Shown here in pieces: positions 1-3,000 of a stretch of DNA of 27,334 nt (position 1 is the first letter of the stretch; each line of letters begins with the position of its first letter). The DNA is from Escherichia coli (GTDB lineage Bacteria > Pseudomonadota > Gammaproteobacteria > Enterobacterales > Enterobacteriaceae): NCBI RefSeq assembly GCF_003334315.1, contig NZ_QOWR01000063.1; one strand, written 5' to 3'. Made by a program: the position numbers.

Positions 1-3000
1 CTAGTCTAAAAACTAGTATTAAGACTATCACTAACTTAAGTGATACCAACTGTCTGGAGATTCAGGGGGCCAGTCTATGATTCTAGGTAATGATTACGTT
101 GATTTAGCTCCGCTTTTCCAGGCACACAGCACTAGAAACTATCTGCTTTCTACTCTGGATTTTACGGATTCTGTAGGGGTTACATCTCATAAAGTAGCTG
201 TTTCACAGCTTGTCGAAAGCAACGAATCTCTCTTTAACAAAGAGACAAGCCGTTTTAGTTCTGAACACAACGTTACTAAGCGAGAACAAGGTAAAGAATG
301 GCTGATCGAAATCCCGTATTTTCTTCGTGAAGATGTGATCCGTCCTTCTGATGTTCAAGGCAAACGTAAGCCAGGCACTGATTTCCAGGAAACACTCACT
401 GATATCTATGCGGAATATATCGCTAAACACAATGTTGCATTCCAGCGTACTAAAGAGAGCGTGTTGGCTGCTTCCCTGTTTAGTGGTCGCACTTATACCC
501 CGAAAACTGATGATGTTCTTATCGAGTGGGGCAAGCTGTTTAACGTATCAGCTATGAAAGCCACTGTTAACGCCTCCGCCACTGACACAATGACCGTTTT
601 CAAGCAATTTGACCAGCTTGCTACGGATATTATGGAGAAAGCACAAAGCCAGGCGGCTGCTGTAGAGCGTATCGTAGTATTCTGTAAGCCTGCGGCATTC
701 AACGCTATTCGTTACAGTGTTGGTATGGTCAATGCTTTCCAATATGCAAGCCCTGTAGACGATGCCAACGTGGTGTTTAATGTGCGTTCCCTGCTACCAG
801 GTGTAACTACTTTCACCATTCCAGGAACTAACATTGACCTGATCAAAGTGACTGATCCGCTACACCTTGCACATATGACTTCTGATGCGGTTGCGGTTCC
901 GAAGTTTGCTAAAGGCTCTAACGTATATCAGAACATCTACGGGGCGGCTTCCAGCACCTTTGAACTGATTAATGCCGCTCCTGCTGAGGTGTATAGCTAC
1001 AGCTATGAGGGTTCTCGCGGCGACGCAGTGCACGTAGTGACCGAGAATAGCCAGATGGTTGTTAACCACGGTGTAGGCTTCTCCGTTCAAATCACTGTTA
1101 AATAATATTTTAACGTGTAATAGAGGCGTGGCGTGTATTCACGCTTCGCCTTTTTTTATTTATTTTTAAATTTTGAGAGGTGATTAAAATATGGAAGTGA
1201 TTTTGAAATCAAAAAATGGTGTACACGTACATTTAGATGCTAATGATTCTAGAGGCTTGTTAAATCTGAAATATCTATGTTCTCTTTTAGATGTTCCATA
1301 TGAAGGAGTAAAAGCCCGTATGTTCAGATTAAACGAGAGCATTGATCAGGCTCTACACCATTTCTTAAGTAAAGAAGGTGATAAAAATGATTAATAAGGG
1401 GATTTTAAATGTTAGAAATTAACACTTCTAAAATTAAGAACACAGTAACATTTAGTGTAGATAAAGACAGCTTGAAAAAAGCGAAAGACTCTATTACAAG
1501 CCTAAAAGAATTCGTAGAGAACATCAAGCCAGCTAAATTAAGGTTTGATAATGTCACTAAAGGCTATAAGAAAGCACAAAGTGAAGTAGACAAGATTACC
1601 CAGCAAAAAGCCAAAACAGAAAAGCAAAATCAAAGAGCACAAGCTGCCGCAGCAAGAGCACAGGCAAGGCAACAGCAACAAATAGCAGCACGTAAGGAGA
1701 AAGCTGAACTAAAGCTTTTAGACGTTGGATCAAGCATTAGTGCAATGCACCGTCTCTCTGTAGCTGAACAATATAAAGCTATTGCACAGGCTAGAGAGAT
1801 AGCAAAACAATATGAGCAAGGGGCTATCTCGCTTGCACGTATGAATAGCCAGATGAAACGCCTACAACAACAACAACGTAAAATTAATGGCAACAGAAAA
1901 ACTCAATTAGCCCCCGTTAAGGGAGGATCAGGGAATTCCGCCACGATGGGCGCTCTGTTATTTGGAGGCGCTACGGCTGCTGCTGGCGTGATGGCTGTTA
2001 GTAAAACCTCTGAATTTATGGCTAACAGCTTTGCTAACGCTGAAACCCAAGGGGAGCTAATTCAACGTGCCAAGCTGGGCGGTGTAGACGTTAACCAGAT
2101 GTATAATATTACAGAATGGGCGTATAGAAACGGCGTTGACTCTATGATGGGTGATCAAGGGGCTAGAAAATACCTGGATCAGATGAAAGATGTTAGGGAA
2201 CGTGCCGCAAAATCCTACAGTGAAGCTGAATTGGTGAAAGACAAGAAAACCGGAAAATCTGAATGGAAAGGCGGTGATAACGGTATTAATGAACTTCTAA
2301 ACATCGGTGTTATTAACAAGAGCGACCTTAAAAAATTTGCTGATAATCCAGCCGGATTAATTTCTAAGGCTGTTAATGGAATGATGAAAAAAGGGTTTTC
2401 AGACTCCCAAATTGGACAACGTTTAGAAGACCTGGGCGATGATTTGATGCTTACGTCAAAATATTGGCAACGTTCCGTTAAAGATGTACAAGAAAGTATT
2501 AATCAGCAAAAAGCCTCTGGAAAATGGCTAACAGAAACACAGCAAGAATCTATTGTTAAATTCAGAGAGCTAAACAGACAGCTTTCACAGCTTTCTGATG
2601 CAAGACAAGTAGCATTCGTAGACGGCTTTATGAAATCTCTCGATCCGAAAGTAACGGAAGAGTTTATGAAAAACCTTTCTAATCTCACTCCGTATTTTAC
2701 GAAGCTGGGAGAAGCTACAGGAAGTCTCTTTGAAGCTATTATGAAGATTGTAAACTGGTTTAATCGTAATGATGATAAGACAGATGCTATTCAGAAAAAT
2801 ATGGGTGATGCACCGCCACTATCTAACGATGGAATGAAACAGAATCTTTCTAACCTCGTTCCTGATAAATATAAAGGCGCTGGCACTGCAACAACTACAC
2901 CTGATAATAGTCATTCTCTCTTTAACACGATTAAGGGATTGCTTTTCGATGATAATGCTTCTTCTGTGTCAGATGTAAAAATGTCAGTCAGCGAAGCACC

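What the first reader, a model, noticed from the sequence alone, without database searches (positions are those of the whole stretch)
77..1105. Capsid-like gene next to the integrase of a tRNA-integrated element
A 342-aa protein with weak but collinear motif similarity to HK97-fold major capsid proteins sits immediately upstream of the unknown cassette and the integrase, with its own strong terminator. A major capsid gene at the integrase-proximal end is unusual for lambdoid prophages, where structural genes sit far from int. It would fit a degraded prophage or a capsid-encoding phage satellite. The capsid call rests on motif recollection only, so the protein could be something else.
Basis: inference. 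Interest (0 to 1): 0.45.

Follow-up and report, generated by a model that had tools for sequence, protein, structure and literature searches.

The report
Capsid gene of phi92-type phage satellite
The ORF is a real phage capsid gene, but it belongs to a small, conserved, tRNA-integrated element that looks like an undescribed satellite of large virulent phi92-like coliphages, and this strain's copy is cut off by an insertion sequence.

Summary
Window 77-1105(+) is an intact 342-aa ORF followed by a strong terminator. It is a full-length Phage_cap_E/HK97-fold major capsid protein (MCP): Pfam E=8e-16, and all top Foldseek hits are phage capsids.

The "unknown cassette" is a tape-measure homologue plus a tail-tube-initiator homologue. 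Their closest relatives, and the closest solved structure to the MCP, are phi92 gp134, gp135 and gp124. phi92-like phages are strictly virulent, ~148-kb myoviruses.

The genes belong to a ~12-13 kb element at thrW. About 35 loci from E. coli, Klebsiella, Enterobacter, Citrobacter, Sodalis and unnamed IMG/VR contigs keep the same order: iteron-rich non-coding DNA, Rep-like gene, small genes, decoration protein, MCP, 67-aa ORF, TMP, optional tube initiator, integrase. None has a portal, protease or terminase. MCP dN/dS is about 0.1.

Many copies also carry two non-coding blocks matching the direct terminal repeat of phi92-like phages. One invariant 10-mer sits on the repeat boundary.

Best reading (0.6, inferred): an undescribed satellite of phi92-like phages. 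In this window an IS2 end abuts the MCP start codon, so everything left of the MCP is missing or displaced. No experiment supports mobilisation.

The parts
1..77 (-). Terminal 77 bp of an IS2-family insertion sequence (the end upstream of its transposase). Its last base is the A of the capsid ATG. It marks the truncation or interruption of the element in this strain.
   Evidence: 92% identical to the IS2 end next to the annotated IS2 transposase in strain E3 (L002 12001-12077); the IS ends ...GGGGGCCAGTCTA. The native upstream sequence with the AAGGA RBS, seen in L001, is absent here. No complete E. coli genome shares this junction.
77..1105 (+). Major capsid protein gene (342 aa), HK97 fold, Phage_cap_E family. 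Distant full-length homologue of phi92 gp124.
   Evidence: dN/dS 0.09-0.12 against other E. coli alleles. Length stays at 341-348 aa down to 38% identity across Enterobacterales.
1123..1157 (+). Intrinsic terminator after the capsid gene (13-pair interrupted stem, then U7).
   Evidence: dG -21.2 kcal/mol, z=-5.1, 0 of 200 shuffles fold as well. The same hairpin is present in L001.
1191..1394 (+). Conserved 67-aa ORF of unknown function, always found between the MCP and TMP genes.
   Evidence: Present at this position in 31 of the 36 loci, the window included; no match in L007 or L028-L031. dN/dS 0.05-0.08 within E. coli. No family hit.
1409..3241 (+). Tape-measure protein homologue (610 aa) of phi92 gp134. 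The N-terminal ~30 aa are 80% identical (84% at DNA level) to the phage protein; the rest is ~28%.
   Evidence: phrog_16051 E=1e-54. tblastn hits 134 records, mostly phi92-like (Stephanstirmvirinae-type) phages of E. coli and Klebsiella. Pairwise comparison. Solved chain 21vq_V Phi92_gp134 E=3e-39. DNA-level 85% over 98 nt. Codon profile.
3275..3988 (+). Tail tube initiator (Dit-like) homologue (237 aa) of phi92 gp135. 63% identity overall, ~95% in the first 35 aa.
   Evidence: PF21821 E=5.6e-29. tblastn to phi92, Justusliebigvirus and Phapecoctavirus at 60-63%. Pairwise comparison. Solved chains 21vq_N Phi92_gp135 E=2e-81, PhiTE 'tube initiator' 9cuy_K and Pam3 gp17.
4070..5404 (-). Tyrosine integrase of the element. 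The longest ORF is 444 aa; the RefSeq-equivalent start is at 5347, giving 425 aa.
   Evidence: phrog_1 E=3e-33. Weak XerD/XerC matches. Annotated as tyrosine-type recombinase in relatives. Orthologues carry DUF6538 plus Phage_integrase. Not related to IntF of K-12 CP4-6.
5491..5509 (+). attR core: a 19-bp copy of the 3' end of tRNA-Thr (thrW). It marks the right boundary of the element.
   Evidence: Identical to thrW 3' end in L001 and to the empty site in strain HCP30S3_I2, where tRNA-Thr directly abuts the same flank.

Best explanation
The ORF encodes the major capsid protein of a compact (~12-13 kb), thrW-integrated mobile element that is most likely a phage satellite of phi92-like (Stephanstirmvirinae and related) virulent myoviruses.

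Shown:
- The protein is a full-length HK97-fold MCP. Its nearest solved relative is phi92 gp124.
- Intact copies of the element carry a tyrosine integrase, an iteron-rich non-coding region, a Rep-initiator-like winged-helix protein, a capsid decoration protein, the MCP, a tape-measure homologue and usually a tube-initiator homologue.
- No copy has a portal, protease, scaffold or terminase.
- The architecture is collinear across genera and under purifying selection.
- Many copies carry two non-coding blocks matching the direct terminal repeat (DTR) region of phi92-like phages.

Inferred mechanism:
1. On infection by a phi92-like phage the element excises and replicates from its own origin.
2. 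It makes its own decorated, probably smaller, shells on helper portal and scaffold.
3. The helper terminase packages it through the DTR-boundary-like site.
4. Its chimeric TMP and tube initiator, which have helper-like N-termini, enter the helper tail-initiation complex.
5. The satellite spreads at the helper's expense.

In this window the copy is interrupted exactly at the MCP start codon by an IS2 end. The decoration gene, replication module and DTR-like blocks are therefore absent or displaced, and this copy is probably not mobilisable as it stands.
For: MCP identity.

Neighbours match phi92 gp134 and gp135, which lie in one solved tail complex (21vq).

The element's order (decoration, MCP, small ORF, TMP, initiator) mirrors phi92 gp123, gp124 ... 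gp133, gp134, gp135.

The upstream 120-aa protein folds like the capsid decoration proteins of Bas63, Sf14, PhiTE and YSD1. These are the same capsids that match the MCP (AF2 pLDDT 80.7; Foldseek probability ~1, TM ~0.5).

Conserved collinear architecture in ~35 loci from E. coli, Klebsiella, Enterobacter, Citrobacter, Sodalis and unnamed IMG/VR contigs.

The only ORFs above 250 aa are MCP, TMP and integrase, and the L001/window ORFs have no head or packaging PHROG hits other than the MCP.

Purifying selection: MCP dN/dS 0.09-0.12 at dS 0.39-0.70.

Discrete insertion with a 19-bp att core, and an empty site in a strain whose 5-kb flank is 100% identical. Present in 242 of 5426 complete E. coli genomes.

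Replication module: Rep-like protein phrog_270 E=8e-11; iteron arrays in L001 7150-7600.

DTR mimicry:
- A 46-nt core is 93-96% identical to a unique site in 62 phi92-like phage records. In phi92 it lies at 318-363, across the annotated DTR end at 343.
- A second block matches DTR 136-187.
- Both blocks recur at a fixed position and orientation in E. coli, Klebsiella and Enterobacter islands. The Klebsiella and Enterobacter islands match a Klebsiella phage better than they match phi92.
- An independent PhageTerm DTR of 342 bp is reported for BME3 (PMC12210895).

Ongoing exchange with the phages:
- Helper-like N-termini with high codon identity.
- The Citrobacter island initiator is 74% identical to phi92 gp135 but only 50% to the E. 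coli island protein.
Against: - No experiment shows induction, packaging or transfer.
- The function of the two DTR-like blocks is unknown. Block B also reads as a near-consensus sigma-70 promoter, so the blocks could be regulatory rather than packaging signals.
- No similarity was found to the outer DTR boundary.
- Some islands lack block A (L002), and Sodalis and several other loci show no detectable block.
- The tube initiator is missing from the Klebsiella/Enterobacter-type islands, so it is not core.
- The MCP is only ~21% identical to phi92 gp124, and the AF2 model has modest confidence.
- Capsid size and dependence on the helper portal or scaffold are pure inference.
- The window copy shows only the right-hand third of the element.
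Confidence: 0.6

Rival explanations
1. Defence island without its own transfer. The element expresses decoy or dominant-negative copies of phi92-type structural proteins (MCP, TMP, tube initiator) that poison assembly of infecting phi92-like phages. It is never itself packaged.
For: - The structural homologues have helper-like N-termini grafted onto diverged bodies.
- The TMP is 49 aa shorter than gp134.
- Satellites and prophages are known to block tail assembly (PMC11364771).
- The element sits in a hot-spot locus with variable cargo such as HNH, Dam and an invertase.
Against: - No PADLOC model matches.
- A matched MCP plus decoration pair conserved at full length suggests real shells, not decoys.
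- Its own integrase, replication initiator and iterons, plus phage DTR-like cis blocks, are unnecessary for a pure decoy.
- Defence and satellite lifestyles are not exclusive, so this overlaps with the main model.
Confidence: 0.2
2. Decaying remnant of an ordinary temperate (lambdoid-type) prophage whose other morphogenesis genes were deleted. This is one of the first reader's alternatives.
For: - Integrase at a tRNA site together with phage structural genes.
- The window copy is visibly damaged by an IS2.
- IMG/VR lists such regions as predicted proviruses.
Against: - The same ~12-13 kb gene set and order occurs in ~35 loci across genera, with no copy holding a portal, terminase, protease, sheath or tube gene.
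- dN/dS is about 0.1 with high dS.
- The structural genes are related to strictly virulent ~148-kb phages, not temperate ones.
- It is unrelated to the K-12 cryptic prophage CP4-6 at the same site.
Confidence: 0.05
3. Window-specific reading: whatever the family does, in this strain the capsid gene is an inert orphan. It is cut from its operon, RBS and partner decoration gene by IS2, and it is retained only because the event is recent.
For: - The IS2 end abuts the ATG and the native RBS is lost.
- No other complete genome has this junction.
- All five ORFs in the window part are still intact and near-identical to functional-looking alleles, as expected for a recent event.
Against: - The window starts inside the IS, so a simple IS insertion with the rest of the element on the other side cannot be excluded.
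- Outward transcription from the IS end was not tested.
- This reading is compatible with the main explanation rather than a true alternative.
Confidence: 0.5

Closest known systems
[quoted passage not shown]
   Same: - A small integrated element that appears matched to a large strictly virulent myovirus.
- Its own replication initiator with an iteron-type origin.
- Manipulation of helper capsid and tail assembly.
- Signs of an ongoing arms race, seen as mosaic exchange with the helper.
- ICP1 coat protein in PLE small capsids (8g1r) is among the structural matches of this MCP.
   Different: - PLE has no capsid gene. It resizes ICP1 coat with the external scaffold TcaP.
- PLE uses a large serine recombinase.
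- Here the element has its own MCP, decoration protein, TMP and tube initiator, plus a tyrosine integrase.
- There is no sequence relation to PLE genes.
- The helper relationship here is inferred, not shown.
Capsid-forming PICIs (cf-PICI, e.g. EcCIEDL933)
   Same: An integrated satellite that encodes its own HK97-fold major capsid protein, so it builds its own heads rather than resizing the helper's.
   Different: - cf-PICIs encode a protease, portal, head-tail connectors, HNH, TerS and TerL, and have no tail genes (10.1101/2022.09.08.507074).
- This element has none of those, and it does carry tail-initiation genes.
- It would need the helper's portal, scaffold and terminase.
- No alpA or pri-rep module.
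P4-like satellites of P2
   Same: - About 11-13 kb, integrase at a tRNA-type site, own replication.
- Carries a copy of the helper's packaging signal (cos in P4; DTR-like blocks here).
- Encodes a capsid decoration function (Psu in P4).
   Different: - P4 has no MCP or tail genes. It resizes P2 capsids with Sid.
- Its helper is temperate.
- No Sid, Psu, delta, epsilon or alpha homologues were detected.
SaPIbov5 Ccm and the Streptomyces satellites MulchRoom/MiniFlayer
   Same: Precedents for satellites that encode an HK97-type capsid protein homologue, including satellites of virulent helpers in Streptomyces (PMC10690885, listed).
   Different: Different hosts, gene sets and packaging modes. 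None is reported to carry a TMP and tube-initiator pair, or to be linked to phi92-like phages.
phi92 / Justusliebigvirus / Phapecoctavirus structural module (gp123-gp124 and gp133-gp135)
   Same: Homologous MCP, TMP and tube initiator, a structurally matching decoration protein, and the same relative order. DTR-like non-coding blocks are shared.
   Different: The element is 13 kb rather than 148 kb. It is integrative with its own replicon, lacks all other virion genes, and its MCP is only ~21% identical.

Membership tests
HK97-fold major capsid protein, Pfam Phage_cap_E (PF03864) | Full-length match to the family profile | tested here: met
   i-E=7.8e-16, query 14-341 against model 9-329/329. 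phrog_29 E=1e-13. All homologues carry PF03864.
HK97-fold major capsid protein, Pfam Phage_cap_E (PF03864) | HK97 three-dimensional fold | tested here: met
   The AF2 model (pLDDT 58.7) has the long spine helix and the A/P-domain strands. The top 17 Foldseek PDB hits are all phage capsid proteins with TM ~0.45-0.54. The N-arm and E-loop are low confidence, so this is a moderate-quality test. The profile also hits solved MCPs by sequence.
HK97-fold major capsid protein, Pfam Phage_cap_E (PF03864) | Assembles into an icosahedral shell | not testable with these tools
   Needs expression and EM.
Phage satellite (general) | Integrative element with defined att sites, much smaller than a phage | tested here: met
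   19-bp att core at thrW, an empty site in a strain whose 5-kb flank is 100% identical, about 12.9 kb in L001.
Phage satellite (general) | Lacks a complete virion and packaging gene set | tested here: met
   No portal, terminase, protease, sheath or tube gene. The only ORFs above 250 aa are MCP, TMP and integrase.
Phage satellite (general) | Own replication module | tested here: met
   Rep-initiator-like protein (phrog_270 E=8e-11; HTH_36 in orthologues) next to iteron arrays in relatives. Not present in the window, because of the IS2 truncation.
Phage satellite (general) | Carries the helper's packaging signal or otherwise redirects helper packaging | tested here: inconclusive
   Two blocks match the phi92-type DTR. 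The invariant GTGCT|TAACG sits on the annotated DTR end. Their function is unproven, and they are absent or undetected in some islands.
Phage satellite (general) | Helper-dependent induction, packaging and transfer | not testable with these tools
   Requires infection experiments.
cf-PICI | Encodes portal, protease, head-tail connectors, HNH, TerS and TerL in addition to the capsid | tested here: not met
   None present. Definition taken.
cf-PICI | No tail genes; PICI-type alpA and pri-rep module | tested here: not met
   A TMP and tube initiator are present. No AlpA or primase-rep hits inside the element. In Citrobacter an AlpA/primase element lies outside it.
PLE | Homology to PLE genes (large serine recombinase, RepA, TcaP and others) | tested here: not met
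   The E. coli element uses a tyrosine integrase. No PLE-type hits in PHROG, NCBIfam or PADLOC searches. The resemblance is functional only.
P4-like satellite | Sid, Psu, delta, epsilon and alpha genes, and the P2 cos site | tested here: not met
   No such family hits. The structural homologues are phi92-type.
Lambdoid or other temperate prophage (remnant) | Gene content traceable to a temperate phage genome | tested here: not met
   Nearest phage relatives are virulent 137-150 kb myoviruses. No similarity to CP4-6 at the same site.

The most novel reading that the evidence does not exclude
Enterobacterales carry a widespread, undescribed family of ~12-13 kb satellites of virulent phi92/rV5-type myoviruses. 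These satellites bring their own decorated capsid shell, re-programme the helper's tail-tube initiation complex with chimeric TMP and tube-initiator proteins, and pirate the helper's direct-terminal-repeat packaging site. This would be an E. coli and Klebsiella counterpart of the Vibrio PLE/ICP1 system, with a gene set not seen in any known satellite family.
Probability: 0.5. Interest if true: 0.85.

Novelty: new variant of a known kind. Interest (0 to 1): 0.7.

Why it matters
- phi92-like, Phapecoctavirus and related phages have very broad host ranges and are often isolated as therapy candidates. A resident satellite present in about 4% of complete E. coli genomes (242 of 5426), and in many Klebsiella, Enterobacter and Citrobacter genomes, could limit these phages and be spread by them.
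- It would give E. coli a tractable satellite system with a virulent helper. Until now such systems are mainly known from Vibrio (PLE, PICMI) and Streptomyces.
- It would be the first satellite seen to carry its own tape-measure protein and tube initiator, and the first to mimic a short-DTR packaging site.
- For annotation, these loci should not be called defective prophages.

Tried and rejected
- **Lambdoid prophage remnant.** Rejected on conserved synteny, purifying selection and virulent-phage affinities.
- **Relation to K-12 CP4-6/IntF at the same thrW site.** No protein similarity.
- **Known defence system.** No PADLOC hits. The Tai tail-assembly-inhibition systems are different proteins.
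- **cf-PICI, P4 and PLE membership.** Defining genes are absent.
- **Sequence homology of the 120-aa protein to phi92 gp123, and of the 67-aa ORF to gp133.** None by BLASTP or hhalign. Only fold similarity links the 120-aa protein to decoration proteins.
- **Similarity to the outer DTR boundary, or other shared DNA with the phage.** None found beyond blocks A and B and the coding matches.
- **Rfam on the island.** Only thrW was found.
- **Finding the window's own IS2|MCP junction in complete E. coli genomes.** None found, so what lies left of the IS remains unknown.
- **IMG/VR.** It gave 26 more integrated copies but no ~13-kb free or virion-type contigs.
- **Literature.** Searches for a satellite linked to phi92-like or Vequintavirinae phages, for thrW capsid islands and for the RefSeq protein accessions found nothing. 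One further search failed technically.
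Full report
**1. The observation**

Window 77..1105 (+) is an uninterrupted 342-aa ORF. Four lines of evidence identify it as a capsid protein:
- It matches Pfam Phage_cap_E (PF03864) over its whole length (i-E=7.8e-16).
- It matches PHROG phrog_29 'major head protein' (E=1e-13).
- A profile built only from its bacterial homologues (A2) retrieves solved phage capsid proteins. The best is phi92 gp124 (21uy_N), E=6e-19, aligned end to end.
- An AlphaFold2 model from a 19-sequence alignment is only moderately confident (pLDDT 58.7, pTM 0.59; the N-arm and E-loop are poor). 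Its top Foldseek hits in the PDB are nevertheless exclusively HK97-fold capsid proteins: PhiTE, ICP1 coat, Bas63, Sf14, YSD1 and Chi, with TM about 0.5.

The hairpin at 1123-1147 plus a U7 run has dG -21.2 kcal/mol and z=-5.1 against shuffles, and it is conserved in the E. coli relative L001. So both the observation and the capsid call are confirmed.

**2.

- ARAGORN finds no tRNA in the window. A 19-bp copy of the thrW 3' end (ACTCCTATTATCGGCACCA, 5491-5509) marks attR.
- In relatives the complete tRNA-Thr sits at the other end of the element.
- Strain HCP30S3_I2, whose 5-kb flank is 100% identical to the window, has the empty site.
- The 'unknown cassette' has three genes. The first is a 67-aa ORF.
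- The second is a 610-aa homologue of the phi92 tape-measure protein gp134 (phrog_16051 E=1e-54; PDB chain 21vq_V E=3e-39).
- The third is a 237-aa homologue of the tail tube initiator gp135 (PF21821 Dit_like E=6e-29; 63% identical to phi92 gp135; PDB 21vq_N E=2e-81; also PhiTE 'tube initiator' and Pam3 gp17).
- Window 1-77 is the terminal inverted-repeat end of an IS2-family element. It is 92% identical to the IS2 end in strain E3, and its last base is the A of the capsid ATG.
- The native ribosome-binding site and everything upstream are therefore missing here. No complete E. coli genome shares this junction.

**3. The element the gene belongs to**

In 242 of 5426 complete E. coli genomes the same five genes lie at the right end of a ~12.9-kb insertion at thrW.

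Homologues of the MCP keep a length of 341-348 aa down to 38% identity. They occur in Klebsiella, Enterobacter, Citrobacter, Cronobacter, Dryocola, Sodalis and Serratia.

Contexts from these genera, plus 26 IMG/VR loci, show one collinear architecture:
- variable cargo and a small recombinase or invertase;
- 1.5-2.4 kb of non-coding DNA with dense iteron arrays;
- two tiny ORFs;
- a Rep-initiator-like winged-helix protein (phrog_270 E=8e-11; HTH_36);
- three small ORFs, then a ~70-aa ORF;
- a ~120-aa ORF, the MCP, and a ~60-aa ORF;
- the TMP homologue;
- usually the tube initiator, which is absent from the Klebsiella/Enterobacter type;
- the integrase.

No copy encodes a portal, protease, scaffold, terminase, sheath or tube. 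The only ORFs above 250 aa are MCP, TMP and integrase.

The 120-aa protein has no sequence match. Its model is confident (pLDDT 80.7) and matches the capsid decoration or cement proteins of Bas63, Sf14, PhiTE and YSD1 (Foldseek probability ~1, TM ~0.5). These are the same capsids that match the MCP.

Within E. coli, MCP alleles differ by dS 0.39-0.70 with dN/dS 0.09-0.12. The TMP, initiator and integrase are also under purifying selection.

A more distant relative (L043, 36% GC) is an 11,966-nt contig with a 19-nt direct repeat near both ends. It holds an integrase, a TMP, a decoration-like protein and an MCP in a different order.

This is a conserved mobile element family, not a decaying prophage. 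It is unrelated to the K-12 cryptic prophage CP4-6 at the same site.

**4. The link to phi92-like virulent phages**

All three structural genes point to one phage group:
- The TMP hits 134 phage records, mostly phi92-like (Stephanstirmvirinae-type) ~141-153-kb myoviruses of E. coli and Klebsiella.
- The initiator is 60-63% identical to the same phages.
- The nearest solved MCP is phi92 gp124.
- The island order mirrors phi92 gp123 (decoration), gp124 (MCP) ... gp133, gp134 (TMP), gp135.

The similarity is mosaic:
- The first ~30 aa of the TMP are 80% identical to phi92 (84% at DNA level).
- The first ~45 aa of the initiator are 93-95% identical (89-92% at DNA level).
- Both stretches have high codon identity, while the rest of each protein is far more diverged.
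- The Citrobacter island initiator is closer to phi92 gp135 (74%) than to the E. coli island protein (50%).
- The Klebsiella island TMP matches Phapecoctavirus TMPs at 40-42%.
- The Sodalis TMP matches TMPs of other 137-141-kb Klebsiella myoviruses at 26%.

Together these indicate repeated exchange with this phage group.

The islands also share non-coding DNA with the phages:
- A 46-nt core in L001 (5810-5855) is 93-96% identical to a unique site in 62 phi92-like phage records.
- In phi92 this site is 318-363 and straddles the annotated end of the 343-bp left DTR. The invariant GTGCT|TAACG falls on that boundary.
- An independent PhageTerm estimate gives a 342-bp DTR for the related phage BME3 (PMC12210895).
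- A second block matches DTR positions 136-187.
- Both blocks recur at a constant place, ~5-6 kb upstream of the MCP, in one orientation. This holds in most E. coli islands and in Klebsiella and Enterobacter islands.
- The Klebsiella and Enterobacter islands match a Klebsiella phage better than they match phi92.

**5. Most likely mechanism, and its limits**

The best explanation (confidence 0.6) is a satellite of phi92-like phages. The anatomy, homologies, selection and shared cis blocks are shown. The following steps are inferred:
- helper-triggered excision and replication from the island's own origin;
- assembly of island MCP and decoration shells on helper portal and scaffold, probably smaller because 13 kb rather than 148 kb must be held;
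- packaging by the helper terminase through the DTR-boundary-like site;
- incorporation of the chimeric TMP (49 aa shorter than gp134) and tube initiator into the helper's tail-initiation complex.

Caveats:
- Block B also looks like a near-consensus sigma-70 promoter, so the blocks may be regulatory.
- No match to the outer DTR boundary was found.
- Some islands lack one or both blocks.
- The initiator is not universal.

The main rival (0.2) is a non-transferring decoy-type defence island. A prophage remnant is unlikely (0.05).

For this strain the IS2 junction means the visible copy lacks its decoration gene, replicon and DTR-like blocks. Alternatively, these are displaced beyond the IS. Either way the capsid gene here is probably not part of a working unit.

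**6. Comparison with known systems, and novelty**

- It works most like PLE with ICP1 (virulent myovirus helper, own replicon) and like P4 (helper packaging-site mimicry).
- It shares a self-encoded capsid with cf-PICIs. It fails the defining gene sets of all three.
- Searches of the held literature found no description of a satellite tied to phi92-like or Vequintavirinae-type phages, or of these proteins. That library is incomplete, so prior description cannot be excluded.

I rate it a new variant of a known kind (phage satellite), with interest 0.7.

Noticed in passing
window 16290-16310 (ecpC, minus strand; ORFs 15060-16277 and 16115-17584): The fimbrial usher gene ecpC is split into two overlapping ORFs by a 1-bp deletion in a C7 run (C6 here), compared with L001 (99.3% identical otherwise). 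This could be a pseudogene, a slippage variant or a sequencing error.
   Followed up: partly
L001 7150-7600: Dense iteron arrays in the island's 2.4-kb non-coding region: CACCCCCACAGAATTCTGTTA x7 at ~23-bp spacing, TAGGTCATAGTGAACTA x4 and ACCTAGGAAATGATTTCC x3. They lie upstream of the Rep-like gene and are probably the origin and/or operators.
   Followed up: partly
L001 5810-5888 and 6612-6663; L013 4837-4966; L003 3761-3835: Two phage-DTR-like blocks. In Enterobacter they are adjacent. In many E. coli islands they are ~440 bp apart. In L001 a DNA invertase gene (5892-6431) lies between them. Strain E3 (L002) has block B only.
   Followed up: partly
window 77-1105 compared with 1409-5404: Within E. 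coli the MCP gene is far more diverged (dS 0.39-0.70) than the adjacent TMP (0.13-0.19) and integrase (0.05). The island is therefore mosaic, with old MCP allele classes (97, 90 and 80% clusters).
   Followed up: partly
L043 (Logan SRR24146892 contig, 11,966 nt, 36% GC): A distant relative with a 19-nt direct repeat GCTGGTAGGGCCTCCACC near both contig ends. Gene order is rearranged: int ... TMP, PhiTE_211-like, decoration-like, MCP. This suggests a wider superfamily outside Enterobacteriaceae.
   Followed up: partly
L016 (E. coli HCP30S3_I2, NZ_CM149861.1 3436611-3437151): An empty thrW site: the yagP fragment lies directly next to tRNA-Thr. A 5-kb flank of this strain is 100% identical to the window. 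This shows presence/absence polymorphism of the island.
   Followed up: yes
L003 2768-2971 (-), 67-aa ORF next to the small recombinase: This small Klebsiella island protein has a weak homologue in phage alia (tblastn 36% over 52 aa, E=7e-5, alia 131451-131603). It is another possible island-phage shared gene.
   Followed up: no
L001 10321-10728 (135-aa ORF), residues 95-119: A short conserved motif in this core island protein and in its Klebsiella orthologue hits the same spot in phage alia (125287-125367). It also hits two small PHROGs of unknown function. All hits are weak (E about 0.01-0.7).
   Followed up: no
window 5447-5509: Besides the 19-bp att core, a further tRNA-like fragment (GGTCGTAGGT) lies 34 bp upstream. 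The attR region therefore looks like a disrupted pseudo-tRNA, comparable to the thrW-derived remnant expected at this att site.
   Followed up: no
L012 15544-21032 (Citrobacter): A second, unrelated integrative element lies immediately next to the island. It has a P4-type integrase, AlpA, DUF5375 and a primase of the Zn-ribbon/Toprim/DUF927 type, so satellite-like elements are arranged in tandem at one site.
   Followed up: no
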